A stretch of 62,568 nucleotides of DNA, counting the filler, from Stramenopiles sp. TOSAG23-6 (Eukaryota): assembly GCA_900128565.1 (NCBI GenBank). It is 4 parts of 4 records of this genome, joined end to end, with 100 filler letters (N's around TTAATTAATTAA, not from the genome) between each part and the next. Parts side by side here need not be neighbours in the genome. Positions count along the whole stretch, not along the records: positions 1 to 15,661 come from LT636109.1; 3 more parts are not named here. The stretch is one strand, 5' to 3'. The notes below the pieces were generated by a model. It searched no databases. It was not told the origin of the DNA and saw nothing but the letters and a program-made list of their open reading frames with translations. Positions 1 to 31,375 of this stretch are shown here, one piece after another. Every line of letters begins with the position of its first letter. Positions within the stretch are counted from its first letter, which is position 1. Position numbers and translations under genes: made by a program.

Positions 1-161
1 ATTTATTTTTTTTTTCGTACGAAATTTTGTACCTAAACAAAAAAGATTTTTTTTTGAGTTTTTATTTCTATATGTTTCCATCATGAATTTCAAATTTATT
101 TTTTTTCATACGAAAATGTGTACCTAACACATTATACATTTTTTATTTTTTCACAATACAT
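1..161 (+). other. 3' part of a family intron ending CACAATACAT, with two internal modules
   Basis: Two T-run/CRTACGAAA/TGTACCTAA modules, then TCACAATACAT at 151-161 followed by an open frame. Confidence 0.75.
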
Positions 162-1195
162 GTCCTAACTGGTTTGATGAAAAAGATGAATGTGCACGAG
201 ACTTATTAACGACAGACTGTAGAGATAATCTACAATGTTCATTAGGATCATGCAAACCTCAATGTTATATTTGTTATTGGTTAGTAAAAAGTTTTCCTGT
301 TTTTGAAGAAATTTGCTCTCCAGTAACCCTAAAAAAAGAGTCATATACATCTGCTTTACAACAATCAAAAACTACATGGAAACTTAATGAAAAAGACTTT
401 TCAACACCAGATAATCCATATGAAAAACCTGGGTTAGGATCTGCAAAATTAGGGAAAGAATCATGGTCAAAATCACTGAAGTATTGTATGAGTATGTGGA
501 ATGAGTTTGTATACTCGCCAAAAGCAAGGTATACAATCCAATTTCGTGATTCATTTGGTAGCCATCCTTGGAGTGCTTCAACTGCATGTAAATGTATGTT
601 TTCATTATGATTTTTTTTATTATAAGAAACGCCCGATTCGTGTTTTCATCATGATTTTTTTTTTTAGTACAACATATTTTGTACCTAACGATAATGTATA
701 AAACAAACAATATTTTAGTACAATATATGTCTCGGTAAGTGTCCATATAATTCTTTTGAATCTTTAGATCTTTCTACACAATGTATTTATGAAGACAATG
801 CTGACCGAGCACTAAATTTATTTCCAGATTTGAATCCAGAATATTCAAATAGATACATTTGGGAAAAGAATCGGTATAATCCTGACCAGCAACAGGATAA
901 AAGTCCGTATGAACTACAAGTAGAATTTGCAAGATCAAAAAAACTAACAACACCAGATCCAGGTGCAGTGTACTCCACGTGGGATTTGACTGGAGCTGTA
1001 ACGGGAAAACAAAAAGCACAAAAACCTTTATTAGCAAGTGAACCAGGATTACATGCAATTGTTAATCCTCTTCTGGGAGTTCGACCTTGGGTGATGCTTC
1101 CTACTGGTGGTACAAATGATGAATCGACAATTAGAGATCCACAATTAAAAAATTCTCCTAGTAGTGAAGATGGCGTAAATGAGTTGGATACGTAA
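162..1195 (+). CDS. Cys-rich protein of unknown function, 5'-partial (exons 162-593, 729-1195)
   Basis: Open frame PNWFDEKDECARD...ASTACK. Removing the GT..AT intron 594-728 joins it to CLGKCPY...NPEYSNRY, the frame of ORF 830-1195. Confidence 0.65.
594..728 (+). other. GT-AT intron (family)
   Basis: GTATGTTTT...TTTTGTACCTAAC...CAATATAT; removal restores ACKCLGKCPY. Confidence 0.8.
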
Positions 1196-1285: not shown

Positions 1286-2853
1286 TCAATAACCTTCTAT
1301 ATTGTATAAATCTATATTTGAAGATTTTTCATCATCCCATTGACCATTTACTTCACCACCTGAATTAAACCAATCTGGGTTTTGATCCCTTCTATGTTGT
1401 TTTGGTATACAAGGACCATTCTGTGTACCAATAGATGATGCTGTCTCTTCTAAAGCCATACGCATACATCTAGCTGACCATATAGACATATCTCGAGGAA
1501 CATTTATGTATGATGAAAAAATATTTCAAAAAAAAAAATTTTGAAAATTTGTTAGGTACAAAATTTTTATAAAAAACAAAATTGGAATTTGAAAAAAAAT
1601 AACAACATACATTCTATCTCGGAGATATCGCAAAGCTGCATCAGTACCTGCAACACAAGAAGAAGGAGGAACGACTGCAGTATTTGTAAGTAAATTTGTA
1701 ATAACGCATCGGAGACCAACGTCTACAGATTTTCTCATCTCTTCTGACATATTATTGACTCCTCGCAAAGCCGCATCAATACAAGCGTTTCGATGTCGGT
1801 ATACCCTTGCCACAGCTAAAATTTTAGCATCATCAGGTTCCGGGTAACCACAGTCAATACAATGCTCTTTACTATCAACGATTGTCGGATGTACACATTC
1901 ATCAATATGTAGCTTACATGCCTGTTGGTATTTGTCTCCACTTTCATAACATCCACCCATCTGTGGTGGTAAATCATGAGCATGTGTATGAAAATCAGAT
2001 TGGATCGATATACACTGTGAAAAATATTTTTTTTTTTTGGATAAAAATTGGTTAGGTACAAATTTTCTTATGAAAAAAAATAATAATCTCGAAATATTTT
2101 GAAAAAAACGTACTTATACACAGGCCGACTTTCTAATGCTTCAAACCAATCCGAAATACCAGGGAAATCGTCTTTATTTCTTAGATGGAATCCTTTATAA
2201 TAATACAATGATGCGTTCATTCTTTCCATATATGGAACAAAAATTGTATCAACTATAGAAAACCCTGAAGATAGAAAAAAAGAGGAGGAAGAACTAGCGA
2301 GAACCTTATCAACTACTTGAGCAATACGAGTGAACTGAAGTCTTCCATTATTTTCATTGGTCTGCCTATAACACAACCATTGACACCAAGCTGAAAAAAG
2401 AGCCCGCTCTAACTTACGTAGTTTAATTACTTCTTTCGAATGCATTGATGGTGGAGTAACTGCATCACCCATTGTTCCAAAAGTCTCTTCTAACTTGGAG
2501 AGAATTACGTCAGACTCAGTGATGAGCTCTCCGTCTATTTCTAAAGCTGGAAGCATTCCCGAGCGAACTTTTTTTTTGAACCATCTTTCCTTATTACCAT
2601 AACAAAACATTGTTACTTTCGATACTCGGTATGGGACACGCTTTTCTTCCAACCAAAACCAAATTTTCTGACAGTATGGACACCATGCATGGTTATCTCT
2701 GTAGAGAGTGACTCGAACACTACTTTTACTTTTCCCAAACAAACGTAATCTAGACTGGGAAGAAGCAGGTCCATTTAACAAATCATGTGAAATGTTGCTT
2801 CTTTGTATGATTGACTTAATCGCATTCCATGCCAAAGGTACATTTGAAGACAT
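1286..2853 (-). CDS. Glutathione S-transferase family protein (cyanobacterial/algal type); exons 2853-2114, 2009-1611, 1505-1286
   Basis: Motifs [22 protein letters not shown] and SGMLPALE; spliced junctions [26 protein letters not shown] and [14 protein letters not shown]-terminal HRRDQNP. Confidence 0.85.
1506..1610 (-). other. GT-AT intron (family)
   Basis: GTATGTTG...TGTACCTAAC...CATCATACAT; removal restores [11 protein letters not shown]. Confidence 0.88.
2010..2113 (-). other. GT-AT intron (family)
   Basis: GTACGTTTT...TGTACCTAAC...CACAGTGTAT. The AT end gives the QSDFHTH frame; the AG 5 nt upstream does not. Confidence 0.85.
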
Positions 2854-3115: not shown

Positions 3116-6100
3116 ATGGATGGTTCTCTAAAAGGGTTAACTCAAGGTAATAAAGGTCACTTTGGTCCTAAAGCTGGAGCAAAAGCAGCGAAGAAGAAGG
3201 CCTATAAAGATAAAAAGGCTGGTAAAGTTGGTCGCACTGAAAATGAGAAGCGTCAAAATCACAAAGCATTTGGCGTTGCTAACTATGGTCGAGTTCACCG
3301 AACTATTCAACGAAATAACGATCTCCGTCACCGTACTGAGGTTGTTGGTGCTCAAGATCGTAACAATGCAGCTGAAAAACTTAATCCTCCCGTNGTTGTT
3401 GTTGTCATGGGTCNAGCTGGTTGTGGTAAGTCAACTTTAGTGAAGTCGTTAGTCAAAAAATGGACAAACCAAACGTTGACGGACATCCGTGGTCCAATTA
3501 ACGTCGTTGTTGGTAAAAAAAGAAGAGTTACTTTGTACGAGTGTCCTTCTAATGATACAAATGCTATGATTGATCTAGCAAAGGTTGCTGATTTAGTTCT
3601 ATTAATGATTGATGCAAGTTTTGGGTTTGAAATGGAAACGTTCGAGTTTCTCAATGTTCTTCAAGTACATGGATTTCCAAAGGTATTGGGAGTTCTCACT
3701 CATTTGGATAAATTTCGTGTAAGTAAACGTCTTCAGAAAAGGAAAAAGAATCTTAAAACACGTTTTTGGACTGAAATTTATCAAGGCGCTAAATTATTTT
3801 ATCTTTCTGGTTTGGTGAATGGAAGATATCCGAAAAACGAAATTCATAATTTATCACTTTTTGTCAGTCGCATTAAATTTCGACCATTGTCTTGGCGTAA
3901 TACTCACCCATATGTTCTTGTTGATCGTTTTGAAGATGTTACTCCATCAGGGAAGATTGTGGAGGATGATACCATTTCGAGAACAGTGACAATGTATGGT
4001 TATGTTCGTGGAACAAATTTGAAGCCTGGTATGAAATTCCATGTACCAGGTGCAGGAGATTTTTTTCTCAAAACTGTTGCAAAAATGCCTGATCCATGTC
4101 CTTTACCTGCAATAGGAAAAGATAAAGATGGTAAAGTAATCCGAAAGAAATTAGGAGAAAAAGACGTTTTGATCTACGCCCCAATGTCTAATGTACGTTT
4201 TCATCATTTTAATTTCAATTTTTTTTTCATAGAAAATTTTGTACCTAACAATTTTTTTTCCAAAAAAAAAAAAAATATTTTTTCACAATACATATGGGCT
4301 CTGTTTTGTATGACCAGGACGCTGTATATATAGATGTACCTAAAATTAATTTTTCTCATAAAAGAGATCTCGTTCAAGAAGAAAAAAGTGAAGAAGAAAA
4401 TGAGAATTCGGATTCTTCTGAAGAGGATAGTTCTGAAGATGATGATGATGATGATGATGATCGTGTTGGTATTTCACTTGTAAAGAGGCTTCAAAAAGTA
4501 GATGACGATTTGCAAGATAGCATGCAATCTTCCGGTATTAGTCTTATTCGTGGGTCAAAAGAAATTGTTGATGATGATTCGAGTGATGATTCTAATGATG
4601 ATTCAAGTGATGATTCAAGTGATGATTCTAATGATGATTCTAATGAAACTGAACATCCAAAGATGTCGCGAAAGGAAAAGCGGCAAGCTAGAGCAGCCTT
4701 ACATCAAAAGAATAAAGACAAAAATGATGAAAAAGAGATTAAAAATGAATATGATATCATTCGCTCTCAATTATCAAATCTTGATAAAACATTGAGTGGT
4801 CGTACAACAAAAACAACAACAAAACACGATGAAGATTCTAATTCTGTGACAGATAAAGGCATTGACTGGAAATCTGCGTTGGCGGAGTCTGCAGCTGCCA
4901 CTTACTTAGATCGTATTTGTAGTAAAGTTGATTTAATGAAACTAGTGTATGGTGATTACGAGAGTATTCGTTCGTTTGGAGGTAAACGCAGTAAAAGTCC
5001 AAGTAATAAAGACGATGTATCGCCTTCAAAAAAAATTAAAAATCTATTTGATGCTTCGGATGAGAGTGACTCTGAAGAAGATAATTTCTTTACATTAAAA
5101 ACAAAACAAAATAAGGATTGTGGTACACCATCCCAGAGTACATGTAAGAATGATGATATCGATGGATATCTCAATGCTGATGCATTTGATTGTTCTCGTT
5201 TTATTATGCATCAAAAAGATTTTCAATCCTGGGAGGAGCACGAAATCCGTGAATCAATACGTGATAAATTTGTTACAGGCACTTGGAAAGATCCAAATGA
5301 AGATTCAGATTCTGATGATGACGATGTATCAGACTCAGGTTCTGTATGTTTTATTTTTTTCAAATTCGTTTTTTTTTTCGTACGAAGTTTTGTACCTAAC
5401 ATTTTTTTTTTGAAATATTTTTCCAAAATACATGTGGCTTTAGGTGATTGGGAAGACATGGAAGCAGATGTTCTCAATACTGTAGCACGTATTCGTAAGA
5501 AAGCAAATGGTGAAGACGATGATTCAGAATGTGAAGGTGATTTTGAAGATATTGAAGAAAGTCCTACCTCAGGTATAAGTAAATCTCCTGATGTTGTTGT
5601 TGATGATGATGATTCAATGTCAGAAAGCGACGAAGAAGCAGATGCTACTGTCGATGATAACTATGAAGGTGCTGCGTCTAATGATACTAGTTGGCGTGAT
5701 GCTCGTGACAGGAGGCGGGCGGAGAAGGCCGAAGCTCTTAAAGCCCTCAAAACCAAAAAGAAGGAAGAATTCGATGCTGCTTATGATCGTGGTAAGGCAG
5801 ATGAAGGTCCTGAAGTTTTAGATGAATTTAGTCGTGTGATGGCTGAAGCAACGAATCAACAAGCTATAATTAATGCAAATGAATTTGAAGATGAAAATGA
5901 AGAAACTAGAATATTACTGGAAGGCTTTAAAGCAGGTATGTACGTTCGTCTTGAGTTAGAAGGAGTCCCGTGTGAATTTATTAAACATTACAAACACAAT
6001 TCGCCTATTATTTTGGGAGGTCTCCTGGCACACGAACAAGCTTTAGGTCTAATGCAAATTCGATTAAAGGCTCACCGCTGGTATCCGAAACGTTTGAAAT

Positions 6101-9472: not shown

Positions 9473-12127
9473 ATGTTCTATAAAAATGGTCAGGAAATTT
9501 CTGGTAGTGATCGAAAGCCCTTTTCAGAGTTGTCCCCATCTAATGAAGCGTGGGGAAAGAATGTTTCTTCAGGTTATGGTTCACAAAGCGTCAACAAGAA
9601 AAGTTCGTGGGAGCCTGCATATTTACAGAAAGTTGCATCTAGTATAGGTATTATTCCACAATCTTGGCGGAAAAATAAAAAGATATCTGTAGAAGAGAGA
9701 ATGAAAAGAAACAAAATTAGAGGTTCAATTACAAAAGGTTTTGCTTTGCTTCGAAAGTTGCAACGAACTCGAGAAAATATTTCAGCGCGTCGCCGATTTC
9801 TGCTGTGGAAATACAACACTGGTGAAGGCCACATACCCAAACAGCGTTCAGCGTTATCTCTATTTCTTTTCGGCGGAGGTTCATCCAATGAAAAATACTC
9901 GAACTTTTTACTTTCAAAAAAAGAAACAACAAAAAAAAGAAAGCCCTTGCAAAAATCCAATGAAAAATCCTCGATTTTTTTACTTTCAAGAAAAGAAACA
10001 ACAAAGAAAAGAAAGCCCTTAAAAAAAGTATTATTTTCTCCGCAGAAAGGGACATTTCCCCAAACAAACACTACTGTAGATTCCCAATCAAAACTAAATT
10101 GTCCAGTAGAAGAATCATCTTCTCAAGAACGCCATTCATTATTATCATCCTCAAATCGACTTTATTTGACATTATTATCATTGACTTCGAAAGGTGTTAC
10201 TATTTGCGCCTTGGACAAAGGGAAACAAGCGATTTCGTTATTGACTTTATTATGGCGCATACTCAGAGTACAAAATGAATTACGAAAAGGTAGATTTGGT
10301 AACAGTAATAAGACCTCAATACGAGGTGTTGCTCAATTAGTTGGATTGTGGGTCGCACTCGCTGTGGCAGAAAAAATAGGACGATCTCTTCCACTTGGAA
10401 AACTTCGAAATCAGTGGCAAAAGAAAGCTTTTTTGTTAATTAGCCCAGCTAAAAGAAGAATCAGCCTCTCTTTACAATATGTCAATAGAATTGTTCATAC
10501 AATACAAACACCTGCAAAGAAAATATTCCAAACGCCATCACGAATATTTAATTCACTTTGGTTAACAAACACTAAAAACACTACACCGAATGATCATCTA
10601 ACACCTATTATGAACAATAGTTTTAATTGTATAATGACTACAAAAGATGATATAGCCCCGGTATCGAGTAAAACCACAGGGTTTGATTCAAGTAGAAATT
10701 CTCGTATAACACCACGAATTCATTTCAACGACCTTATATCGACTCCGATACAGTTTCGACATTTTGAATCTCCAGATGTATTAGGTACGAAATGTGGTAC
10801 AAATTCATTTTCAAATACTACAATCAACAAAAAAATCATTATGACACCTCTTGTAGCCAAAATACAATCTCTTGGGTGTAATATCAGAAAGCCCCTATAT
10901 GAAGAAGCCTCGGCTCTTTGTATTCAACGAAGTTGGAAAAATTATAAAAAAAGGAAAAATAGTATAGTTATAACAGATACAAATAAAACATATAAATCAT
11001 CTAAAACACCTGCATCAAAGTATCCTCATACACCAAGAACTGTCACAACTGTTGGATATTATACACCATGTACGTTTTATATGNANTTCTNANTTNANGN
11101 TTTTTTTTTCATACNAANTTTNGTACCTAACAATTTTTTTTTTTTTAAAATATTTTTTCACAATACATTCTCATTGAATAAGAAACGTCGCATACTTCAT
11201 CAACTTCGAACTACAGTAAAGAAACAAAAATACAATTCTGCAGTGTGTAGTATCATTTCTGGATGTGCTTATGATTCAGATGAGGAAAATGCTGATATTT
11301 TAGGACCAATTTTACTAAAAAAGCGAGAAGATGTTGAAAAATTGGAAAACGAATGGATGAACATTTGGAATGAAACACGAAAAACGCATAAAATACGTGA
11401 AACACAAAAACAACATTCTATGAAACAAGTTAAAAAAAAATATATATTTTCAGTATCGGAGTTTGTTTTACTATTGAAAAAAACGCGCAATTTTATTTTA
11501 TTGTTGTGCTTATCCATTGTTTGTTTTTATATAGTAATATATACAAATTGTAGAAGCTCATTTGAAACTGTGGTAAACGAGTTGGATGTATTGGAAAACA
11601 GAATTTCAAAACGTTCAGCAAATGAAAATGTTAAAGACATTTCATTTCTTATTGCCATGAAGACGATTGCTGTACCAATGCTTAGTAGTTGTGCGTCTAC
11701 ATTAGGGATATTTTCGTACTTTGACAAATTTGGTTCGATTGTAACTAGTGTATTAAATAATAGTAGCAAATTAGATGAGAATAGAAACAGGAATATTGAA
11801 AAGGTAAATGGGAGATTTCTACTTGATAAAAGCGTAACAGATGCTTCCAGTATAGCACAAAAATATATCGTTCATCCTTTTCTATTTATAGTATTTCACA
11901 CTTTATCAATAACAAATGTAATGATTATAACAACTGGTACATTAGCACAAAATGTTTCAGAGTATGTTCATATTGTATCATATAATCTGACAAAATTCAT
12001 GGAAAAACAAATTTTACCTTTTATTAATTCATACAATACGAGAGTATTAAGTACGTCAGTAAGTATATTCGTAGTATCCATTTTTATTAGTCTACACATT
12101 TTTCAACTTCGAGCTCGATTTAGTTAG
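9473..12127 (+). CDS. Unknown protein with an IQ-like motif and C-terminal hydrophobic segments (intron 11070-11168)
   Basis: 884-codon ORF; ALCIQRSWKNY IQ-like motif; contains an in-frame family intron. Confidence 0.65.
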   Translation: MFYKNGQEISGSDRKPFSELSPSNEAWGKNVSSGYGSQSVNKKSSWEPAYLQKVASSIGIIPQSWRKNKKISVEERMKRNKIRGSITKGFALLRKLQRTRENISARRRFLLWKYNTGEGHIPKQRSALSLFLFGGGSSNEKYSNFLLSKKETTKKRKPLQKSNEKSSIFLLSRKETTKKRKPLKKVLFSPQKGTFPQTNTTVDSQSKLNCPVEESSSQERHSLLSSSNRLYLTLLSLTSKGVTICALDKGKQAISLLTLLWRILRVQNELRKGRFGNSNKTSIRGVAQLVGLWVALAVAEKIGRSLPLGKLRNQWQKKAFLLISPAKRRISLSLQYVNRIVHTIQTPAKKIFQTPSRIFNSLWLTNTKNTTPNDHLTPIMNNSFNCIMTTKDDIAPVSSKTTGFDSSRNSRITPRIHFNDLISTPIQFRHFESPDVLGTKCGTNSFSNTTINKKIIMTPLVAKIQSLGCNIRKPLYEEASALCIQRSWKNYKKRKNSIVITDTNKTYKSSKTPASKYPHTPRTVTTVGYYTPCTFYMXFXXXXFFFIXXXVPNNFFFFKIFFHNTFSLNKKRRILHQLRTTVKKQKYNSAVCSIISGCAYDSDEENADILGPILLKKREDVEKLENEWMNIWNETRKTHKIRETQKQHSMKQVKKKYIFSVSEFVLLLKKTRNFILLLCLSIVCFYIVIYTNCRSSFETVVNELDVLENRISKRSANENVKDISFLIAMKTIAVPMLSSCASTLGIFSYFDKFGSIVTSVLNNSSKLDENRNRNIEKVNGRFLLDKSVTDASSIAQKYIVHPFLFIVFHTLSITNVMIITTGTLAQNVSEYVHIVSYNLTKFMEKQILPFINSYNTRVLSTSVSIFVVSIFISLHIFQLRARFS
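11070..11168 (+). other. GT-AT intron (family), 99 nt, in-frame
   Basis: GTACGTTTT...GTACCTAAC...CACAATACAT; contains several ambiguous bases. Confidence 0.8.
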
Positions 12128-12267: not shown

Positions 12268-15200
12268 TCATGAAGTTCCTGATAAAACCATCCACATATT
12301 ACGACACAAAGATGCTTCCGTTCGCACCGCTCGTTTTTTATCATTCAATACAGGGACGAGCTCCTTTACCACTCGGCGTCCCAACGGGTGGATTTGATGG
12401 TATGGTAGTAGTCGTATTGTTTTGATACAACGACACGCCTGCATACGAACTTTAGCTGTGACACCATTACAAGCAAGAAATAAAAGTGAAGAAGTCACTG
12501 AATCAACATGAGTAGCGATTGCATTCAGAGTCCGCATTCTAGCATCTTTATTAATATTTGATTCCTTTTGATCTGTTGGATTGGAATGAGTCAAATCTGA
12601 ACTAAATGAACGATGTTTTCGAGTTTTTCGTGTATCCATTGGAACTATAGTTTTCTTTGCATTAAGCAAAGCATCAAAACAAACTAATGCAGCAGAACGC
12701 ATAGTAATATCTATATGTTTGTCAGTTTCGCTAGATTTATATTTGGTGCCACCCAAAGCTTGTAAGAGCAAAGGCATTGCTTGTGACATTTCACTATTAG
12801 TAGTGGCACTTGGCATATTCGAAGTTGAATTTGTAGCAAATTTCTTACCTAACGAATTTCCCCCCAGCATTTTACTCACAAATATTGTACTAGGAATTTG
12901 TTGAAAAAGAAGTACGATTGCCAGAAGTACAGGATCTTGTACATCTCGCAATTTTGATTCAGAATCAAATAAAGATAATAGTTTAGTATATATATACTGG
13001 AAGTACTTCTGGCGGTATAAAACACGAATTCTAGCCCCTGTACATCTCTTTAAACAAGATGGTCCAGACACTTCTACATTTGAAATGATACATCCAATGT
13101 TATGCACGGCTTCTTTCCTAATTTCACTACAATGAGTTTCGGTATGTTTCGTTGTTTTACAAATATATGAGCACATCAAGTCGATCAGTGAAGTAGTCAA
13201 TGTATGGCTCCTCATAGCTAATGATTTAGCAACCCAAGATAAAGTTCGCATCGCCTTGGTACTATTTCTATTTTTAGCAGAAATCAATGATGTTAAACAA
13301 TGTACCACATCCGCTAAAATTGTTTCTAACTCAGTTCCTTTTGGCAACTTATTTAAAATCCCAGCTAACGTTTCTGCTGCTGAATTGGTAATTTTTTCAT
13401 CTGAAATAGAAGAGACTGATAATTTAAGTAAAGCCATAATCCCAGAAGATAATTGATGTGAGTCGTCCCAAAGATTTGATGATGTCGAATCATTCCCACG
13501 AAATACTTTTACAGCGCCAATAACTGAATGAACCAAAAGCATCAGCTGTAACTGCGACTTTGAGGATGTACTTTCTAAGGTTTCGATACCAAAGCCAGAA
13601 TGTTTATTATTTTTTACCAATAGACTGAATACAGTATCAACTAAATCCCATTGAGTAGATTGTGTCGAATGAACTGTGATTATATGCAGTATGGACGTAA
13701 TATGCGACATAATTTGAACTTGATTTCTATCTGTTTTATCAAACTCATCGGTTAATGCTCCATTATTAGCTAGTTCCACAAGAGATTCTATAAGAATGTA
13801 TGCAAGACTCTTTTGATTATTTCCAGCGCAAACTACTTTTGCTGAGGTGATTGACTTCATTAAATTTGATGCACTACAATCAGTTTTGCTTTCTTTTGAC
13901 AGACTTTTAGTAGACAGTTTTGTCGCTGCTTCAGCAATGATACAATGTAAAGCTTTAATAACAGCAGCAGCATCGTCACCACTAGCTAAACAACGGCGAG
14001 TATATTGATTCGAAACTTTCGTTTTTTTATGTGGAGAATATACTGTATCATCAGCCTTTGTAGCCTTTGTAGTATGTAACATTCTTTTTAAGAAAAAAGG
14101 TAATACAATATCAAATACGGAAGGTATTACACAAAGCTGACATAAAGCATTAAGTGAAGTTCTACTTGGTAAAGATGAAATTAATTTTGGTATAGCAAGA
14201 TCTATAACCATTTTTAAGTACATTTTGTCACATTTTGCCAGAGATAGGATTGTTAAACATGAATTATTTCTTAATTCTTTATCATCTATAATACGTTTTA
14301 CATCATTCGACGTTTGAATTATTGAAACATTTTCTGTACTGTTTCCCAACACTACTTGGACATTTTCTGTACTGTTTCCCAACACTACTTGGACCATAAT
14401 TTCAATAATCGTTTCAACGGACTCTTTTTCAAGAAGGGGCGATGAAGGTAATAAAAGTAATGAACACAAACCACGCAAACCTGCTTTTCTTGTAGCTAAT
14501 ATTGAATCTTTATGATTGGTTACCGTTTCCTGTTTCAACAAAGAATCATCATCATTATTATTACCTGTACAAGAACTACTAGAATTATCAGAATTATTCT
14601 TATTTCTGCCACAACATCCGCTATTTTCTGTAGGATTCGTCTTCTTTTTTTTACAATTATTCAGTGTATTTCGTGTTTCATGTGATAAACAATACGCCGA
14701 CGAAAATACAAAACGTAAATTATCTATAAATGGTGTAATAGGATTTTTCATTACACCCACATCAATTTCAGAGTCCATTTCAGATACAATATCTGCAAGA
14801 AATTCAATCGACGATCGATATACAATAAGATTTCCTGTTTTTGATTCTGTTGGCATTGCAGACATGGATTATGAAAAAATATTTCGAAATGATTTTTTTG
14901 TTAGGTACAAAATTACGTACGAAAAAAAAAATTCAAAATTGAAATGAAAACGAACGTGCAATGATCAAGGAACGAAGGGACGACAACAGGAATAACTCGA
15001 GCAAACGCTGTACACGACGCACTAGCAATAGCTCGTAACACACGGACAGAACATCGAGCATTCAAATGAGTTAACCTAACTATTTTTGTATTTTTTTTAT
15101 CATCACAATGACTACTATTAGATGTATCTGTATCAATTTTCATTCCATTAGGGTTAGGGTCATCAGACACTGGAGAAATTTCTCGACAACACCGTTTTAT

Positions 15201-15620
15201 TAAAGGGTTACAGAAAGTATTCCAAGCTTCTTCTCCAGAATGCATCGATATAGAAGACACTAGAGATTTCGTGATGATTTTTGTCAAAACACGAATTGTA
15301 TCCAATGTAGAATGAACCACATTTGACTCATCACCAGTAATTGATTCGGTATATAAGACACTTGCTAATTCAGGCAATCGTATGTATAGTGAAAATATAT
15401 ATATATTTTTTTTAGTACAAAAAATTCGTTAGGTACAAAATTTATCTACGAAAAAATAATATATTTGACATTCATGATGAAAACGTACAAATGCTTACAA
15501 AAAGATACTACAGAAAATCCGCTATACCCTGAATTAATACAATATTGCAACGTCTGTAGAGCATCAAGTTGAGCACTAATGACATTTGCTTGAATTTTTT
15601 CAATCAATAATTGAATCACC
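12268..15620 (-). CDS. MMS19: MMS19 (cytosolic Fe-S assembly HEAT-repeat protein), 5'-partial; exons 15620-15489, 15381-14956, 14863-12268
   Basis: C-terminus VRMQACRCI..LPYHQIHP...VVKELVPVLNDKKRAVRTEA...RNMW; upstream exon LLIEKIQANVISAQLDALQTL. Confidence 0.85.
14864..14955 (-). other. GT-AT intron (family, GTTCGT donor variant)
   Basis: GTTCGTTTT...CGTACG...TGTACCTAAC...CATAATCCAT; joins LDHCT-SAMPTE in frame. Confidence 0.82.
15382..15488 (-). other. GT-AT intron (family)
   Basis: GTACGTTTT...TGTACCTAAC...CACTATACAT; joins CKHL-RLPELAS. Confidence 0.82.
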
Positions 15621-15661
15621 ATGTATTTTGGAAAAATATTTCAAAAAAAAATCGTTAGGTA
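15621..15661 (-). other. 3' part of a family intron, truncated by contig end
   Basis: TACCTAAC...CCAAAATACAT followed by an MMS19 exon. Confidence 0.75.
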
Positions 15662-18082: not shown

Positions 18083-21000
18083 TTATTTTTCATTTGTAAT
18101 TCTTGCTGAGGGGGTACAATGTCTTTCTAGATATAACAACTGTTCAACTTCAAAGCAAAAATCTAGTTTTTCTCGTCCAAATTTATCCTCTAAAATTGTT
18201 TTAGTATCTTTGTGTTTTTGATTATGCAGTAAAAACTTTCGGATGTCAGTATACAAAACTCCTTCACGACTTCTCAAGTCATTTTGAAATCTTTCAATCT
18301 GCTCATAATTAATACCGAGAAGCGGCGTATGATCACCTTCTGGTAAATCTGAAACAGCAACTGCAGCAGATGCTTCACCACCAATTGTTATATGCCGTAA
18401 CTGAGCAAGGACTTCAATGGCATCGTCATCAACTTGTGTCTTTCCATCATTCTCAAAATCATCACTATAGAGTCCGCCAGCTTCATCTTCGTCTGAATAC
18501 ATGTCATCATCATCGCCGCTGTCCATATATGATGGTGAAGAAGGCCTAATAACAGATCCATTCTTTTTATCTACATTTGTCAAATATCCTTCATTTCGTG
18601 TAGATTGTTTCTCATCCACTGTATTTTGTGCTAAGGATTTTTCTTTACTAGGAGAAGTATCTATGGATGATGAGGGAATTCCATTAATATTTGTGGATCT
18701 TTGTTTTGCTTCAGGTGATGATCGTCCACCTCTTCCACCTACTCGAATTGAAGTTCGTTGACGTCCGCCGCGTCCTGATAATGATCTTCGATGTCCTCTG
18801 CCACCAAAACTTTTACTACTCCCACGTCCGATATTACTATTATTATTCGACGCAAACTGACCGTCAAAACTGAACATTGTAACTGGTGAACCAGGGTCAC
18901 CCGGAAGACTTTGGGATTCTAACACTGCAACAGCAGCAGCGGTACCAGCTGTCCCAGGACTTATTACAGGTACATGTGCATCTATTTCATCGTAGGGTGA
19001 GTAACAACTTCCTCTAGGCGATGGATTTATCGGTCTTTCGTCAGGATTAATTAAATATGAAGGCCTTTTATAAACATACTTTTGCTTTGAATCCGTAATG
19101 TACGAAAAATTTGAACCTTTATTTTTTGCTTCTATATGAGCCATATATTTTGCTGACTGTGATTTAGCTTCGAAAATAGGTTTTTCCTCATTCACTGTTG
19201 GAATCTCATCGACTCCAGCAGAATCATTAACTTTATATTTACCACCAATTGAACCATGTATTGGTCTATCATCATTCGGATCATGTCTTCGAATTATTCT
19301 TTGTCCTCTCTTATTTCTATTATTTTGTGATTCTTTACCATGTACGAGCACAAATTGTTCATCTGGATTTGAGGATTCTCTAAAATCTTCACATGTATTG
19401 TGAAAAAAAAATTTTTTGTAAAATTTGTTAGGTACGGAATTTCGTACGAAAAAAAAATAAATTCGAAATTGAAAAAAATAAAAGATACATGTTTCATTAA
19501 AAGGATCCTTGCCATCTTTGGTAGAAACATAATCTACACTTCTACGAAAACCGTTGTGATTGGGGGAACTAGAGGAATTCGTTGGCGAAAGTGTTACATC
19601 TGGATTAAATTCTATCGATGCATACAGACTTGCATCGGTTTCTGTTTTTGCTAACGTATCACTCGGCAAATTCAAGTTTGAATCTGGACCAAATTTTGTA
19701 CATGACAGACTCGCAGTACTTAGGTCACTCATTGGAAAAGGGTCATCCGAATTTCCAAATGGCTCCTTATTTTGACCTAAATGTATATTCTTTGATCCCG
19801 CAGCTGTCATTGAAGTAATTGTGATAGTATTCATAGTATCCTTTGACTTTTCATTTAATTTAGACTCCACATTGCAATCAGCTGCAAAATTTAACCCGGA
19901 TCCTGTACTTGACCTAAACATTCGCCGTTTTCGCTCTGCAACTGCATTACGATTTTTAGTCCCTACAGATAGTGTCACAGCTTTTAGCTCAGCTTCACGT
20001 AATTCGCGAGCCAGATCTTTTGATCGTTGTTTTCTCCGTCTCGCTCTCTCTGCCGGAGTGAGCATTACTAGCAAATGTCTTTGCTCTGATTGGCCATTTA
20101 CTTTGGATTCAGATATTTTATTCTTATTTATTTTATTCCTTTTCGAATTCATTTTTGATACTTTTCTCAACTTTTGCCCTATTGAACCACCAGTTCTTTC
20201 TAATTCAGCAATCTGGTTCCTAATGATAGGTGTAGAAAATATTTTTGCGTAGTCTGCTCTTTGGTTTGGATTTTTTTTTAATAAAGATGAAACGAGACCA
20301 CGCATACCTTGACTATATCCTTTCGGTAGACTTGTGTACTTTCCTTGAACAATTTGATATACTAAACCCAATAAATTACTACCTTTAAATGCATGACATC
20401 TTGCACACATCTCATAAAGGATACAGCCGACTGCCCATAAATCAGATTTATAAGTATGTATTTTGGAAAAATATTTCAAAAAAAAAAACTTAAATTTGTT
20501 AGGTACAATTTCAAAAAAAAAAACTTAAATTTGTTAGGTACAAACTTTCGTACGAAAAAAAATCGAATTTGAAAAAAAATAAAACATACATACGGTTTGT
20601 TTTCGCAGACCTCAGGGGACATATAATACGGTGTTCCAACGACAGTGCTTGCATGATCAAGAGTACTACTTAATACACGAGCAATCCCAAAATCACCAAG
20701 TTTAATTATAGAACGGTCGGTGATAAATACATTATTGGATTTCAGATCCCTATGTAAGATTTTTCGACTATGAATATAACGACAAGCCATGCAAAGCTGA
20801 ATAAACCAGTCCAATATTAAAGCTTCCTCTAAAGGCTGTTTTGCTGCTTTAATATACGCCGATAAATCTCCAACAGCACAGTATTCCATCACAATATGCA
20901 AATCTTCCCCATACATGAAACTTTCGCGGTAGTCTACAACGTTTGGATGTTTTAAAGTAGAAAGAAAAGTTACTTCTGCCAGGGCTTGCTTCCGTTCGAT

Positions 21001-22826: not shown

Positions 22827-24824
22827 TTATGGACTTAATGTTTTCATATAATGTCTAAAATCACTCATTGTGTTTTCTTCCCGAACGATCGGTTTAAATC
22901 TTGGTTGTGCGCTGTGTACGTTGCTTTTCGTCGGTGATAAACTTTTAGAAATTGATTTCTCTGTGTTTCGACTTTTACGAGTCGGAGAAATGGATGTTGT
23001 GAGGGATGGTGACGAACACCTATTTGTCCAACGACCATCAATTGTGCTAAAATCAGTCTTTTTATGATTGCTACTGTTAGAATTGAATAATATTGCTGTT
23101 TTTCTATGCCGATTTTTTCGACCTTGACCACTATAACTTTGTTTCGGTATATTCTTTAACTCACTATAAGAATTATTGTAATCTTTTTGTGATGTTTCTT
23201 GAAAATGTTCAACATGAGGAAATTTCTGCTCAATAGAATTTGAATACTTCTTAGTTATTCGTTTTTTTTGTCTCTTTGAGGTAATTTTCTTATTTAACCT
23301 TTGAAGCCGTTTTTCTTGTAATGAAGTTTTTAGTTTATCTAATGTTTTTCTTGATTTACGCCCAGTTTGTACTGACTCTGTAGAAACCCAAGCGGTACCT
23401 CTTTCTATTCTATTGCTAGATGTCTTCTTTGCACTACTGGGAGACTTTTGGGTAGTTTTGATTGATTTCCCAGTCAATTTGATTGTTGGGGAATTTTTCA
23501 GTTTTTGTTTATTTTCTTCGGTTACTCGCTTTGCTCGCATTAAAACAAGCATTGGATCCTGTTCCATAACTTTTGTGAGACCTTCAGCTACCTTTTGGTA
23601 CACATGGATTATGAAAAAATATTTCAAAAAAAAATCGTTAGGTACAAAATTTCGTACGAAAAAAAATAACTTTGTTTCTGGACCAAATTCTAATTGGTAA
23701 CAAACTCGTTTAGCGACTCCTGTATCATTGAAACCAGAGTGTTTCTGTACAGTCCAACCTCCATCTAAACGATCTATCACATCCATGCGAACTTCGATTT
23801 CTTCTAATTGCAACAAAGGTTGAATCGCAAACCGTACCAATTCAGTACTACTTGTAGTCCTTCCCTGTTTTGTACCAACATATACGCAACATCTATCATT
23901 TTCGGTGCCCCCATGAGCGTGTAAATCTAATAAAATGGAGTATCCAAATTTTGCCTCTGCTGCTTCCAAATGGGCTTTGATTTCTTCGTGGTATCTTTTG
24001 TATATTCGAGATGATGATGGACAAAGTGCATTATAAGGCGTTCCTTCTTGTCGTAAAATTCGTTGTTTTGTTCCACATTCGGAACGATTACAGTCGATAT
24101 ATCGTCGATGTGTTCGAAGACAAACAGTAGAAGGTCGAAATCCACCATTTGGATCATCCATTATATAATCGCGAATTCTGACTAAAGTTTTTATTGTATG
24201 AGCATCACAGCACTTGTTTCCATCACAGGACCGCTCTGCTAACTTTTTACCAAAATCATCCAAATAACGATTACCTCCATGAGGAGCTGTTAAAACAAGC
24301 GGACAATTGCCTCGTCGACTCACACCCTCACAAGACTGATCATCCCAGCGCGAACTCCCTGGTTTCGTTTCTAAGGGATTGATTCCTCTTGGGAAACCGT
24401 TATTACGAAATTTTGATACTTTTTCATTTTTTTTTGTAAATAAAGGACTATTTCTACCACTCATTTTTGGGCTACTATTACCACCTATTTTGGGACTATT
24501 TCTACCACTCGTTTTTGCAGTACTAATTATGGGACTACCAAAGGTATTTTTTTTCAATGATTTCTTCTCTCTAGGTGGAGATTTTGGTACAGAAATTTTT
24601 ATACTTTTGTCGTCAGCTGTCAAGCTTTTATAACGAAGCGTTCCCCCTGGAACCAAATACTCCAACACCACCCGATGCCCATCGTTTGACAAAACCCGTC
24701 CTTTCGCCCAGCACATTCGAGAATCGGAGTATACTTCAACCGGTGTGCCAACTTTTAGTTGTTCCTGTCTCTTCTGTTTAGTAGACGTTCTTTTATTCTT
24801 TAAAAACCTGTATAGTTTTAACAT
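22827..24824 (-). CDS. Protein with an N-formylglutamate amidohydrolase-like domain and basic low-complexity flanks
   Basis: PLVLTAPHGG, RRYIDCNRS, YKRYHEEI, ILLDLHAHG, YVGT, GGWTVQ, CYQLEF. Confidence 0.7.
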   Translation of the reverse strand: MLKLYRFLKNKRTSTKQKRQEQLKVGTPVEVYSDSRMCWAKGRVLSNDGHRVVLEYLVPGGTLRYKSLTADDKSIKISVPKSPPREKKSLKKNTFGSPIISTAKTSGRNSPKIGGNSSPKMSGRNSPLFTKKNEKVSKFRNNGFPRGINPLETKPGSSRWDDQSCEGVSRRGNCPLVLTAPHGGNRYLDDFGKKLAERSCDGNKCCDAHTIKTLVRIRDYIMDDPNGGFRPSTVCLRTHRRYIDCNRSECGTKQRILRQEGTPYNALCPSSSRIYKRYHEEIKAHLEAAEAKFGYSILLDLHAHGGTENDRCCVYVGTKQGRTTSSTELVRFAIQPLLQLEEIEVRMDVIDRLDGGWTVQKHSGFNDTGVAKRVCYQLEFGPETKLFFFVRNFVPNDFFLKYFFIIHVYQKVAEGLTKVMEQDPMLVLMRAKRVTEENKQKLKNSPTIKLTGKSIKTTQKSPSSAKKTSSNRIERGTAWVSTESVQTGRKSRKTLDKLKTSLQEKRLQRLNKKITSKRQKKRITKKYSNSIEQKFPHVEHFQETSQKDYNNSYSELKNIPKQSYSGQGRKNRHRKTAILFNSNSSNHKKTDFSTIDGRWTNRCSSPSLTTSISPTRKSRNTEKSISKSLSPTKSNVHSAQPRFKPIVREENTMSDFRHYMKTLSP
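23604..23670 (-). other. 5'-truncated family intron copy embedded in frame
   Basis: TTTTTTTCGTACGAAATTTTGTACCTAAC...CATAATCCAT, with no GTAYGT donor upstream. Confidence 0.65.
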
Positions 24825-26632: not shown

Positions 26633-28678
26633 ATGCATCATGAGACAATCCAATCATGGAGAGTATCACAAAATGAAGAAAGATACACAACTGAAATGAC
26701 GCGGTGGTATATTTTAGCTGTATTTTCTCTGGCAAACATGAATCAGTGTTTGACTTGGTTTACATTTTCATCTGTATCACTCGACAATATGGAATCATTT
26801 TTCGGTAGTAAGTCAAACGAAGACCCTTTCTGGATGCCTGGTATTAATAAATCAACAATTGGGTGGTTGCTTAATTGGGGTCCAATCATTGGTGTCTTAG
26901 TATTTCCATTGCAAGCGTGGTTAACTCAAAAAAAAAATGGTTGGTATACTTGTGTTGTGGTTGCCATCACACTAACGTGTTTTGGTAACATTATCCGAAC
27001 TATCCCAATCCTCTTTGGACCTCACGGCCGAGACACTCAAGCTGCTTTTATATGCTATCATTTTGGACAAATTTTGAATGCTGCTGCAGGGCCCTTTGTA
27101 ATGAGCGTTGTAACAAAGTTATCCTGTGTTTGGTTTGCTGAAAATGAGAGAGTCTTTGCTACTGGCATCGCAGTGACTTCAAATGGCGTAGGAAATGCAG
27201 TAGGATTTCTAGCAGGTCCTTATTTCTGTGATGGAAACATTGAGACACTATTCATGCTATGTCTTATACTTTCTTGCATTCCAGTACTTTGTGTTTTAGT
27301 TTTTTTCCCTATTTTGCCCAGAGAATTTCCATCCGAAGTTGCCAGACAAAGTGCAATAAACCCTAACCCTAACCTAAATAGACTGCATAACAGAGGAAGT
27401 AGAAAACAGTCTTCTCAAATTTCGAATGTACTGGACTCTCAATTTGAAGGAGATGAGCACTTGCTAGATAACTTTGAAGAACCATCAGATTCTATATTTG
27501 ATATGGCATCACCTGTTCGAAATCAAAGAATAGAAGAAACCCTTGAAGAAACACTAACTGACACTGTAAACCCTAACCCTAACTCTTTCTGGAATTGTTT
27601 GAGATTTTCTTTCCCTTCTACACAAAAAAAGGGCGTTGTATCATACCTTGTACTGGTAATAACAACAGGTATTGTTTCTGGAGTATGTTGCGCTTGGCAA
27701 GGCCTGTTACAGGTTATTCTAAATCCTGCTGGTATCAATGAAAAAACTGTTGTACGTTTGTTCTGAAATTTCAGTCTTTTTTTCGTACGAAATTTCGTAC
27801 CTAACAAATTTTACAAAAAAAATATTTTTTTTCACGATACATGGACTATTAGGGTTTTTAAATACAATTTCAGGAACAATTACGAGTATTATAGGTGGAT
27901 ATATTCTAGGGTTTTATGTACGTTTTACATATAAATTTTAAAAAACAGTTCATACCAAATTTTGTATCTAACGAATTAAAAGAAAAAAAAAATTAAAAAA
28001 CAATTCATACCAAATTTTGTACCTAACGAACTTGAGAAACAAAAAACTTCACAATACATTTCCGACGTCGTCTAAAAACTATCTTATTACTGAATTTCGG
28101 AATTTGGACATTTGCAATGATGTACAATTTCTTGATGAATTTCATTTTTTCTTTTTTTTTTTTCGTACGACATTTTGTACCTAACAATATCTTTTCTACA
28201 ATATCTTTTCACAATACGTTTGCTTTACTTTAGCATTACCTACTTTCATCTTTTCTGAGCCGCCATTTGAAGGTATGAATAAAATCGGATTGTTCTTCTG
28301 TTTGCTTCTCTCTGGTTCAACTCAAGGATTTTCAAATACCATGTATCTTTTCATCATTAATTATATATTCTCTCTATTATTTCACATTTTTTTCTTTTTT
28401 TTTCTAAAGTAAAAAAGAGTAAAAAAGAGTAAAAAAAAATGTGTACCTGACACTGTTTTTGACAAAATTGAATATATTTACCAAAAACATAACGTATGAA
28501 TTCACAGCCGAGTTGACTTGGCCAGTACAAGAAGGCTTATCTGCTGGAATTTTAGTGTCAATATTGAATGCATCAAGTTGTATTTTTATTTTTATTAATA
28601 ATAGCTTAAGTTACAGGTACATGTACGTTTCAATCATGACTTTCAAATTATTTTTTTTCGTTAAAAAAAAATTGAAAC

Positions 28679-28721
<43 letters not shown>

Positions 28722-31305: not shown

Positions 31306-31375
31306 ATGTATTTTGGAAAAATATTTAAAAAAAAATCTAAAAAAAATTGTTACGTACAAAATTTCGTACGAAAAA
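31306..31375 (-). other. 3' part of a family intron, truncated by contig end
   Basis: TTCGTACGAAATTTTGTACGTAAC...CCAAAATACAT. Confidence 0.75.

What the first reader, a model, noticed from the sequence alone, without database searches (positions are those of the whole stretch)
5371..5433. Conserved TGTACCTAAC branch-like motif with palindromic modules
Seen: most copies carry (T/C)GTACCTAAC, with the putative branch A about 34-45 nt before the 3' end in the copies I measured. It is preceded by the palindrome TTTCGTACGAAA and followed by AAATATTT just before the acceptor; many copies also have AATTTCGAAATT-like palindromes. Established: the U2 branch consensus is TACTAAC and the U12 one is TCCTTAAC. 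TACCTAAC matches neither exactly, and two donors (19488, 28343) read GTATCTTTT, close to U12 GTATCCTTT. Inference: a variant U2 or U12 snRNA, or an RNA structure, may define the 3' site in place of AG recognition by U2AF1.
Basis: partly seen in the sequence, partly recalled or inferred. Interest (0 to 1): 0.72.

Follow-up and report, generated by a model that had tools for sequence, protein, structure and literature searches.

The report
Branch-site box of non-AG mobile introns
The flagged motif is the best-conserved part of a roughly 100-base intron that has been copied into about thirty places in the genes of a marine protist, and it sits where a splicing branch point should be, in introns that end in AT instead of the usual AG.

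Summary
GTACCTAAC occurs 24 times in 62.6 kb, against 0.14 expected. Every hit lies in one repeated element of about 90-140 nt, with 31 copies or fragments.

All copies lie in sense orientation inside genes. Removing the unit GTAYGTTTT...ACAT restores long ORFs (24 of 25 units) and exact colinearity with human NEK1. They are therefore transposon-like introns with GT...AT ends.

The motif is the most conserved 9-mer of the element, also among copies found with motif-masked profiles. Mismatch is 7% in the motif and 25% elsewhere. Its second A lies 33-49 nt from the 3' end in 23 of 24 copies.

A branch-site reading is therefore well supported, but only indirectly.

- **U12 reading:** not supported, on donor sequence and branch distance.
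- **RNA-structure reading:** not supported.
- **Variant U2:** could not be tested. No snRNA lies in the window and no genome is held.
- **RNA evidence:** one metatranscriptome contig, and it is ambiguous.

The scan had already noted this intron family eight times on other DNA of the same genome.

The parts
5344..5433 (+). Flagged family copy: a 90-nt GT...AT unit in a BMS1/Tsr1-type ribosome-biogenesis gene (ORF 3107-7263).
   Evidence: Its length is a multiple of 3 and it has no in-frame stop, so its intron status rests on family membership.
5344..5352 (+). 5' splice-site-like start GTATGTTTT.
   Evidence: G1 in 19/19 and T2 in 25/25 aligned copies.
5377..5386 (+). Central palindrome TTCGTACGAA (family consensus TTTCGTACGAAA).
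   Evidence: It decays in many copies (CGTACG columns 0.52-1.0).
5392..5400 (+). GTACCTAAC box; candidate branch adenosine A5399.
5401..5423 (+). T-rich tract with AAATATTT (5413-5420).
5424..5433 (+). Conserved 3' terminal block CAAAATACAT, ending in AT.
   Evidence: (A94 25/25, T95 24/24).
70..161 (+). Family copy that starts AT (ATATGT) and ends AT; exact box at 120-128.
   Evidence: Too close to the window start for the frame test.
594..728 (+). Family copy, GT..AT; box at 681-689.
1506..1610 (-). Family copy, GT..AT; box at 1551-1559; palindrome variant TTTTTATAAAAA.
2010..2113 (-). Family copy, GT..AT (end GTGTAT); box at 2051-2059; in a GST gene.
4193..4293 (+). Family copy, GT..AT; box at 4241-4249; same gene as the flagged copy.
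11070..11168 (+). Family copy, GT..AT, with single Ns; box at 11123-11131.
14864..14955 (-). Family copy that starts GTTCGT and ends AT; box at 14900-14908; in an MMS19-like gene.
15382..15488 (-). Family copy, GT..AT; box at 15428-15436.
15621..15661 (-). 3' part of a copy, cut by an assembly gap.
19393..19488 (-). Family copy with donor GTATCTTTT, ends AT; box at 19427-19435; in a NEK kinase gene.
20456..20589 (-). Family copy with an internal duplication and two boxes (20498-20506, 20533-20541). Its removal makes the NEK kinase colinear with human NEK1.
23604..23670 (-). 5'-truncated copy, in frame and stop-free; box at 23637-23645. One RNA-library contig skips 23607-23664.
27752..27842 (+). 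Family copy, GT..AT; box at 27797-27805; in an MFS transporter gene.
27918..28059 (+). Family copy with two boxes: GTATCTAAC and GTACCTAAC (28019-28027).
28122..28219 (+). Family copy that ends GT (ATACGT); box at 28177-28185.
28343..28490 (+). Diverged copy with donor GTATCTTTT; box GTACCTGAC.
28623..28755 (+). Diverged copy without the box; it keeps the family ends.
30122..30212 (-). Family copy, GT..AT; box at 30156-30164; in a VPS9-domain gene.
30395..30498 (-). Family copy, GT..AT; box at 30438-30446. An internal AG 12 nt after the box is not the frame-keeping end.
30731..30836 (-). Family copy, GT..AT; the upstream exon ends AG, not AT; box at 30772-30780.
31306..31377 (-). 3' part of a copy, cut by an assembly gap; box GTACGTAAC.
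40068..40204 (+). Diverged copy; box GTACGTAAG.
44926..45027 (-). Family copy, GT..AT. The 5' end could also be 45018; both keep the frame. Box at 44958-44966.
46920..46987 (+). 5' part of a copy, cut by an assembly gap; box at 46969-46977.
56596..56707 (+). Diverged copy; box GTATCTAAC; in an EGF-repeat gene.
58674..58762 (+). Family copy, GT..AT (end ATATAT); box at 58720-58728.
61650..61744 (+). Family copy, GT..AT; box at 61701-61709; in an SNF2 helicase gene.
61902..62025 (+). Family copy whose 3' end has become ...ATGTAG (AG); box ATACCTAAC, 60 nt from the end.
62497..62568 (+). 5' part of a copy at the window end; box at 62548-62556.
1..68 (+). Middle part of a copy at the window start; box reads GTACCTAAA.

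Best explanation
GTACCTAAC is the branch-site box of a transposon-like ('introner') family of short spliceosomal introns.

Each copy carries a full set of splice signals:
- a yeast-like donor, GTAYGTTTT;
- the box, whose CTAAC core can pair with the U2 snRNA branch-binding sequence and bulge the second A;
- a mostly T-rich tract;
- a conserved terminal block, ...CA(C/A)AATACAT.

The unit that must be removed to restore the reading frame starts with GT and ends with AT. The AT is probably one copy of the duplicated AT target.

Shown here:
- the elements form a family;
- all copies lie in sense orientation;
- frames are restored by removing the unit;
- the spliced kinase is colinear with NEK1;
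- the 3' end is not AG;
- the box is conserved well above the rest of the element;
- the box keeps a fixed distance to the 3' end.

Inferred:
- removal is by the major (U2-type) spliceosome;
- A5399 and its equivalents are the branch point;
- a strong box plus the T tract commit the intron without an AG;
- the second splicing step accepts A-U at the conserved terminal block.

The neighbouring palindromes are inherited element sequence and are not needed as RNA structure.
For: Motif and family.
- 24 exact boxes, against 0.14 expected, all inside one element family.

The elements are introns.
- 24 of 25 full-length units leave at least 28 open codons on both sides when GT...AT is removed. The 25th lies at the window edge.
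- After removal the genes read as ORFs of 284-1322 aa.
- 25 of 25 removed units lie in a same-strand ORF; the six fragments are in sense orientation too.
- 17 of 20 units cannot be read through, because of a stop or a frameshift. Only 6 of 20 have a length that is a multiple of 3.

Exact boundaries.
- In the NEK gene, exon 1 ends at NEK1 (4apc_A) residue 202 and residue 3 of exon 2 aligns to residue 205. There is no gap or insertion.

Internal AGs are passed over.
- Seven copies hold an AG between the box and the family end.
- By my arithmetic, six of these would shift the frame. The seventh would insert 11 codons, against the NEK1 colinearity.

Conservation of the box.
- Profiles that leave the box out re-find 29 elements: 22 with the exact 9-mer, 1 cut by a gap, 5 with one or two changes, 1 with none.
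- The box window is exact in 21 of 27 copies, the best of 87 windows.
- Mismatches to consensus: 23 of 323 in the box against 676 of 2684 elsewhere, Fisher p 1e-15.
- Copies with a decayed palindrome keep the exact box: 594, 2010, 4193, 44926, 1506, 30395.

Position.
- The second A of the box lies 33-49 nt from the end in 23 of 24 copies.
Against: - No lariat or branch mapping exists.
- No clear spliced read was obtained. The only joint seen is one 271-nt contig of depth 3.2 from a polyA metatranscriptome. It skips 23607-23664 of a 5'-truncated copy, with one unmatched letter at the joint. That is not the GT...AT unit, and the contig could come from DNA or from another strain.
- The GTAC half of the box is as conserved as CTAAC but would not pair with the canonical U2 GUAGUA (recalled sequence; pairing worked out by hand).
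- One diverged copy (28623-28755) has no box, and one (40068-40204) reads GTACGTAAG. Both still keep the frame.
- The flagged copy is 90 nt and stop-free, so it could in principle be translated.
- The element profile was first seeded with exact boxes. The motif-masked re-detection lessens this bias but does not remove it.
Confidence: 0.68

Rival explanations
1. The box is mainly a signal of the mobile element itself, for example one of three GTAC-containing sites bound by a transposase. It is conserved because the copies are young or derive from masters that need it. The branch point lies elsewhere or is loosely defined.
For: - GTAC occurs three times in the consensus: in the donor GTACG, in the palindrome CGTACG and in the box GTACC.
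- The GTAC half is as conserved as CTAAC and is not explained by canonical U2 pairing (recalled).
- AT precedes 17 of 25 units, and the ends form a short inverted repeat, ATGTAY...ATACAT. Both are transposon hallmarks.
Against: - Copies differ from the consensus at about 25% of the other positions, but at 7% in the box.
- The other GTAC site, the palindrome, decays freely while the box stays.
- The box lies at a branch-like distance from the 3' end and a T tract follows it.
- The two roles do not exclude each other.
Confidence: 0.15
2. The box is read by a co-evolved snRNA. This would be either a U2 whose branch-binding sequence has gained complementarity to GUACCUAAC, or a U12-like minor spliceosome that tolerates non-AG ends.
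For: - A conserved 9-mer is longer than canonical U2 pairing needs.
- None of the 36 aligned copies or fragments carries TACTAAC.
- The non-AG 3' ends recall the relaxed termini of minor introns (recalled).
- An Entamoeba preprint title and abstract found report a co-evolved snRNA. I saw the search listing only.
Against: - U12 features are not met: no donor has ATCC, the box lies 33-49 nt from the end, and a T tract is present.
- CTAAC already fits canonical U2 pairing (recalled), so no variant is needed.
- No snRNA could be examined.
Confidence: 0.1
3. An RNA fold presents the branch point or measures out the 3' cut. The fold could be the palindrome hairpin, the GUACGA/UUGUAC stem next to CUAAC, or pairing of the two intron ends.
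For: - A 6-bp stem between the palindrome and the GUAC of the box is predicted in several copies, for example 5344, 27752, 30122 and 30731.
- One copy folds well below its shuffles, z -3.0.
- The palindrome stem shows 4 CG-to-UA double changes. Cells paired are 84.5% against 78.7% in shuffles, and 6 of 500 shuffles reach this.
Against: - RNAalifold gives 0 consensus pairs on 21 copies.
- The GUACGA/UUGUAC stem pairs in 72.2% of cells against 71.6% in shuffles. Its G-C and C-G pairs are broken in 9-10 of 21 copies with no compensating change.
- End pairing: 120 of 150 cells paired, against a shuffle mean of 121.
- Fold z-scores of 12 copies run from -3.0 to +0.8, most within 2 sd.
Confidence: 0.05
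4. The elements are not spliced from RNA. They are either cut out of the DNA, like ciliate internal eliminated sequences, or tolerated as coding insertions.
For: - The AT...AT flanks and short inverted ends resemble excision elements.
- Three units, including the flagged one, are in frame and stop-free.
- The one joined contig could be DNA without the element.
Against: - All 31 copies are in sense orientation, which DNA excision does not require.
- 17 of 20 units would break the protein if translated.
- The donor, box and T tract are splice signals.
- RNA-library contigs run unspliced through copy ends, for example X6 record 15 at 28180-28394, as pre-mRNA or contaminating DNA would.
Confidence: 0.02

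Closest known systems
Introner elements: transposon-derived spliceosomal introns of Micromonas pusilla, Aureococcus anophagefferens, dinoflagellates and fungi (review PMC11282704, passages read; PMC12130899, passages read)
   Same: - A multi-copy short element, each copy being a whole intron.
- Sense orientation within genes.
- The element brings its own splice signals.
- One border appears to use the duplicated target, as the review describes for introners.
   Different: - Described introners use GT-AG; the review passage cited in PMC7789003 says the Aureococcus ones have canonical motifs. The 2025 survey states that it checked or discarded families with unfamiliar splice sites (PMC12130899, Methods passage).
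- Here the 3' end is AT in 23 of 25 full-length units.
- The transposon class is undefined: only a 6-nt inverted end and a 2-nt AT repeat are visible.
Non-canonical introns and introners of Amoebophrya A25 and A120 (PMC7789003, passages read)
   Same: - A marine protist with repeated introns bearing direct repeats at the borders and inverted ends.
- Splice sites are not GT-AG.
   Different: - Amoebophrya shows no dominant terminal dinucleotide and has 8-20 nt inverted repeats forming hairpins.
- Here the termini are uniform (GT and AT).
- There is a strict internal box.
- There is no supported hairpin.
Non-canonical U2-type introns of Fritillaria borealis (as cited in PMC11282704; bioRxiv 10.1101/2025.08.15.670264, abstract read)
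   Same: - Introns of transposon (MITE) origin, removed by the major spliceosome despite non-AG 3' ends such as AG-AT and AG-AC.
- There the 3' recognition changed through U2AF paralogues, not through snRNA sequence.
   Different: - In Fritillaria the 5' end is also non-GT and the termini are diverse.
- Here the donor is an ordinary GTAYGT, and a 9-nt branch-like box is nearly invariant.
- U2AF could not be examined.
Yeast-type constrained U2 introns: GTATGT donor, TACTAAC branch box (recalled)
   Same: - GTATGT-like donor.
- CTAAC core with the branch A.
- Branch-to-3' distance of tens of nucleotides.
- Intron-poor genes.
   Different: - The box carries an extra C (TACCTAAC).
- The 3' end is AT, not YAG.
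U12-type (minor) introns: RTATCCTT donor, TCCTTAAC branch box (recalled)
   Same: - A long conserved branch box ending in TAAC.
- Tolerance of non-AG ends such as AT-AC.
   Different: - The donor lacks ATCC.
- The box is 33-49 nt from the 3' end, not about 10-20.
- A T tract is present.
- An AT-AC register fits only 17 of 25 units, against 24 of 25 for a GT start.

Membership tests
Introner elements (transposon-derived spliceosomal introns) | Many similar copies, each of which makes up a whole intron. | tested here: met
   31 copies or fragments in 62.6 kb. Removing the unit restores the frame in 24 of 25 and gives long ORFs.
Introner elements (transposon-derived spliceosomal introns) | Sense orientation relative to the host gene. 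| tested here: met
   25 of 25 removed units lie in same-strand ORFs. The six fragments are in sense orientation too.
Introner elements (transposon-derived spliceosomal introns) | Transposon hallmarks: target site duplication and terminal inverted repeats. | tested here: inconclusive
   AT precedes 17 of 25 units and AT ends 23 of 25. The inverted ends are only about 6 nt. No empty site or autonomous partner was seen.
Introner elements (transposon-derived spliceosomal introns) | Removal from RNA by splicing. | tested here: inconclusive
   One RNA-library contig skips 58 nt of a truncated copy, with one unmatched letter. No clean GT...AT junction was seen.
U12-type (minor) introns | Donor (A/G)TATCCTT. 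| tested here: not met
   Donors read GTAYGTTTT. Two read GTATCTTTT and none has ATCC.
U12-type (minor) introns | Branch box TCCTTAAC about 10-20 nt from the 3' end, with no pyrimidine tract. | tested here: not met
   The box TACCTAAC differs at 2 of 8 letters. It lies 33-49 nt from the end, and a T-rich tract follows it.
U12-type (minor) introns | U11, U12, U4atac and U6atac snRNAs present in the genome. | not testable with these tools
   No genome is held. No Rfam match in the window at the gathering score or at E up to 1.
U2-type (major) introns | GT donor with a GTRNGT-like extension. | tested here: met
   GT starts 24 of 25 full-length units; GTATGT or GTACGT in most.
U2-type (major) introns | Branch sequence that fits yUnAy / TACTAAC. 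| tested here: met
   The core CTAAC is kept (columns 56-60 at 0.89-1.0). The full yeast heptamer is not matched, because of the extra C.
U2-type (major) introns | AG at the 3' end. | tested here: not met
   AT in 23 units, GT in 1 and AG in 1, out of 25. NEK1 colinearity excludes a nearby AG for 20456-20589.
Structure-defined non-conventional introns (Euglena or Amoebophrya type) | Intron ends, or internal repeats, pair to define the cut. | tested here: not met
   0 consensus pairs. End pairing is no better than in shuffles. The hairpin does not covary.

The most novel reading that the evidence does not exclude
This protist runs a private splicing code that co-evolved with one mobile intron family. 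A U2 snRNA, or an SF1-like branch-binding protein, would be retuned to the 9-nt box GUACCUAAC. A second splicing step would no longer need AG and would cut after A-U at a fixed terminal block. Essentially all of its introns would then be GT-AT.
Probability: 0.12. Interest if true: 0.85.

Novelty: new variant of a known kind. Interest (0 to 1): 0.6.

Why it matters
AG at the 3' splice site is among the most constant signals in eukaryotic genes. Here one uniform intron family makes up every intron detectable in 62 kb. It keeps a normal GT donor and a strict branch-like box but ends in AT.

That separates two things that are usually confounded: commitment of the intron by branch site plus tract, and choice of the 3' cut. 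It gives a natural system for asking how the second splicing step finds its site without AG, and how a genome comes to tolerate a mobile element that brings the 'wrong' end.

There is also a practical point. Standard gene finders and introner surveys that expect GT-AG will miss these introns and mis-annotate the genes of such uncultured protists.

Tried and rejected
- **Whole genome.** None is held, so snRNA and splicing-factor searches were impossible. Rfam found nothing in the window at either threshold. Pfam found no spliceosomal protein among 42 exon translations.
- **More copies.** A metagenome scan with an end-anchored pattern gave 15 loci. Only L011 is a family member, and L003 is a weak match at E 0.0011. 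The same pattern in viral contigs gave one chance hit.
- **RNA evidence.** Parts without cover are not used as evidence.
- **Spliced proteins in the large protein collection.** No candidate of 55-175 aa was found for a NEK exon piece. Among proteins of 177-564 aa there was only one hit, at 39% identity. The organism seems absent from the collection, so this gave no test.
- **Boundary finding by pairwise alignment** gave wrong ends and was replaced by profile alignment.
- **Literature.** Searches for GT-AT introns, for the motif and for stramenopile introners found no description of this family. In one search only the top 15 of 377 hits were seen, all primers or unrelated. No supplements were read.
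- **Non-family introns.** Two suspicious ORF junctions turned out to be a start codon and a tandem duplication. No branch motif of conventional introns could therefore be compared.
- **Earlier-notes look-ups** by words and by sequence gave nothing.
Full report
**What is at the coordinates**

Window 5371-5433 is the 3' two thirds of a 90-nt element at 5344-5433 on the + strand. The element reads, in order:
- GTATGTTTT at 5344-5352;
- a T-rich stretch;
- the 10-nt palindrome TTCGTACGAA at 5377-5386;
- GTACCTAAC at 5392-5400;
- a T run with AAATATTT at 5413-5420;
- CAAAATACAT, ending at 5433.

The second A of the box, A5399, is 34 nt from the last base.

The window is A+T-rich, 30-41% G+C. It is a scaffold with N gaps around a linker. 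Three of the gaps fall inside family copies.

**Is the motif more than chance?**

The exact 9-mer occurs 24 times on both strands, against 0.14 expected; 0 of 100 shuffles reach 24. All hits lie in one repeated element.

A profile built from the hits finds 40 matches. Aligned to a 95-column model, these resolve into 25 full-length units, 6 fragments cut by gaps, by window ends or by truncation, and 3 weak remnants.

The consensus runs: GTAYGTTTT, a variable A/T-rich part, a T run, CGTACGAAATTTT, GTACCTAAC, an A/T-rich part that is mostly T, AAATATTTTT, then CA(C/A)AATACAT.

**The elements are introns**

- Removing each unit from its GT to its terminal AT leaves at least 28 open codons on both sides in 24 of 25 full-length units. 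The 25th, 70-161, is too near the window start to test.
- With the 25 units removed, the window reads as long uninterrupted ORFs of 284-1322 aa for the genes that held them. All 25 units lie inside an ORF of their own strand, and the six fragments are in sense orientation too.
- Of 20 units with a fully open spliced frame, 17 would stop or shift the frame if read through. Only 6 have a length that is a multiple of 3, which is the chance share.
- The flagged copy is one of the three that are in frame and stop-free. Its own status as an intron rests on family membership.
- Pfam places the host genes among ordinary eukaryotic genes: BMS1/Tsr1-type for the flagged copy, then NEK kinase, MMS19, MFS transporter, VPS9, SNF2 and others. 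None is a splicing factor.
- No conventional intron was found. Two suspicious ORF junctions were a start codon and a tandem duplication.

**The 3' end is not AG**

For the unit at 20456-20589, the upstream exon ends ...CENKPY, aligned to human NEK1 (4apc_A) up to residue 202. Residue 3 of the downstream exon aligns to residue 205. The protein is therefore colinear only if exactly this unit is removed, or the same length shifted by one or two bases. The possible registers are GT-AT, TG-CA and AT-AC; none ends in AG.

Across the family:
- GT starts 24 of 25 units, and AT ends 23 of 25. One unit ends GT and one ends AG.
- AT precedes only 17 of 25 units, so GT-AT is the register that fits best.
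- Seven copies hold an AG between the box and the family end. By my arithmetic on those numbers, six would shift the frame. The seventh would add 11 codons where NEK1 shows none.
- The first exonic AG downstream keeps the frame in 8 of 25 units, which is the chance share.

**Is the box special within the element?**

The first profile was seeded with exact boxes, so I rebuilt two profiles that leave out columns 45-62. They re-find 29 elements and one spurious site:

| State of the box | Elements |
|---|---|
| exact 9-mer | 22 |
| cut by a gap, 8 of 8 visible letters match | 1 |
| one or two changes (GTACCTAAA, GTACGTAAC, GTACGTAAG, GTATCTAAC, ATACCTAAC) | 5 |
| no box | 1 |

- Among 28 of these copies, the 9-column window over the box is exact in 21 of 27 assessable copies. 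That is the highest of all 87 windows. CGTACGAAA scores 10 of 26, and the 3' terminal window 7 of 21.
- Over all 36 aligned rows, mismatches to the consensus are 23 of 323 in the box against 676 of 2684 elsewhere (Fisher p 1e-15). In the 26 more diverged rows they are 21 of 234 against 564 of 2004.
- Copies in which the palindrome has decayed still carry the exact box, for example 594, 1506, 2010, 4193, 30395 and 44926.
It does not.
- The second A of the box lies 33-49 nt from the end in 23 of 24 copies, median 39. It lies 60 nt from the end in the AG-ending copy.

**RNA structure**

- RNAalifold on 21 copies gives no consensus pair.
- A 4-bp stem across the palindrome pairs in 84.5% of cells against 78.7% in shuffles. 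It shows four CG-to-UA double changes. This is a weak signal in related sequences, and the stem is too short and too A-U-rich to matter.
- Single-sequence folds often pair GUACGA of the palindrome with UUGUAC of the box. Across copies this stem pairs in 72.2% of cells against 71.6% in shuffles, and its G-C pairs are broken in 9-10 of 21 copies with no compensation.
- Pairing of the two intron ends (ATGTAY with ATACAT) is a consensus feature only: 120 of 150 cells paired, against a shuffle mean of 121.
- Fold z-scores of 12 copies run from -3.0 to +0.8.
- A structure that presents the branch or measures out the cut is therefore not supported.

**U2 or U12?**

- The donor GTAYGTTTT is of the yeast U2 type. 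Only two units read GTATCT and none has the U12 ATCC core.
- The box is 33-49 nt from the end, and a T tract follows it. As I recall, U12 introns have the box about 10-20 nt from the end and no tract.
- The core CTAAC fits the U2-type yUnAy consensus and would pair with the recalled U2 GUAGUA with the second A bulged.
- The GTAC half would not pair with it, yet it is as conserved as the core. This is the one point that leaves room for a retuned U2, a branch-binding protein, or a transposon function.
- No snRNA or splicing factor could be examined.

**RNA evidence**

Four RNA runs hold parts of the region. Laid on 15762-31375, they give thin exon cover by contigs of 150-350 nt, large pile-ups on the repeats, and many false joints between copies.

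- One record joins 23665 to 23606 with one unmatched letter between (X10 record 4; 271 nt, depth 3.2, polyA library).
- It skips 58 nt of the 5'-truncated, in-frame copy at 23604-23670, a net 57 nt, so it stays in frame.
- This is not the GT...AT unit of that copy, which would be 67 nt and out of frame.
- It can be read as the mRNA, or an empty allele, of a strain whose exon ends ...CAT before an intact copy. That is inference.
- Another contig (X6 record 15) runs unspliced through copy borders.
- I count this as a hint that a form without the element exists, and no more.

**Comparison with what is known**

- The anatomy is that of introner elements. I read passages of the review PMC11282704 and of PMC12130899.
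- Described introners use canonical sites. The 2025 survey says that families with unfamiliar sites were checked or discarded.
- Amoebophrya has non-canonical repeated introns, but with no dominant termini and with hairpin-forming repeats (PMC7789003, passages read).
- Fritillaria has transposon-derived AG-AC and AG-AT introns spliced by the major spliceosome, with changed U2AF rather than changed snRNA sequence (review passage; abstract of the bioRxiv preprint 10.1101/2025.08.15.670264).
- I found no paper describing a GT-AT family or this box. In one search only the top 15 of 377 hits were seen. No supplements were read.
- Eight earlier notes of this scan, on other DNA of the same genome, describe the same family and reach the same reading of the box and palindrome.

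**Verdict**

The box is best read as the branch-site signal of a mobile GT-AT intron family removed by a U2-type spliceosome. The U12 and RNA-structure ideas are not supported. The variant-snRNA idea is open but not needed.

Noticed in passing
window 15148-15159, 25249-25260 (plus 25268-25282), 27361-27372, 27571-27582, 39248-39259, 39876-39887: Six 12-nt telomere-like blocks, (TTAGGG)2 or (CCCTAA)2. Several lie inside long ORFs, where 12 nt keeps the frame. This is far more than chance for a 12-mer in 62 kb. RNA-run contigs with longer telomere-like repeats attach at 25249 and 25282. They could be footprints of telomerase-healed breaks, or a sequence box.
   Followed up: partly
window 23604-23670 (-) and 22491-22539 (+): Two family remnants lack a donor and lie in frame inside continuous ORFs, so they look 'exonized'. 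The first keeps an exact box; the second has decayed to GCACCTAAT.
   Followed up: partly
window 61902-62025 (+): In one family copy the terminal ATACAT has become ATGTAG, giving an ordinary AG end that still keeps the SNF2 frame. This may be a copy converted to a canonical intron.
   Followed up: partly
window 70-161 (+): A family copy that begins ATATGT instead of GTATGT, that is, an AT start. It could not be frame-tested because it lies at the window edge.
   Followed up: no
window 15662-15761, 31376-31475, 46985-47084: Assembly gaps (N runs around a TTAATTAATTAA linker) fall inside family copies, so the repeat breaks the assembly. Copy counts from assemblies will therefore be underestimates.
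   Followed up: no
window 33440-33560 (+): A tandem duplication of about 54 nt shifts the reading frame between two overlapping ORFs (32158-33525 and 33488-34312). It is either a real repeat polymorphism or an assembly artefact.
   Followed up: no
L011:2466-2588 (-): The only other family copy found in public metagenome contigs. It has an exact box and the end CACAATACAT, and resembles the copy at 30731-30836.
   Followed up: partly
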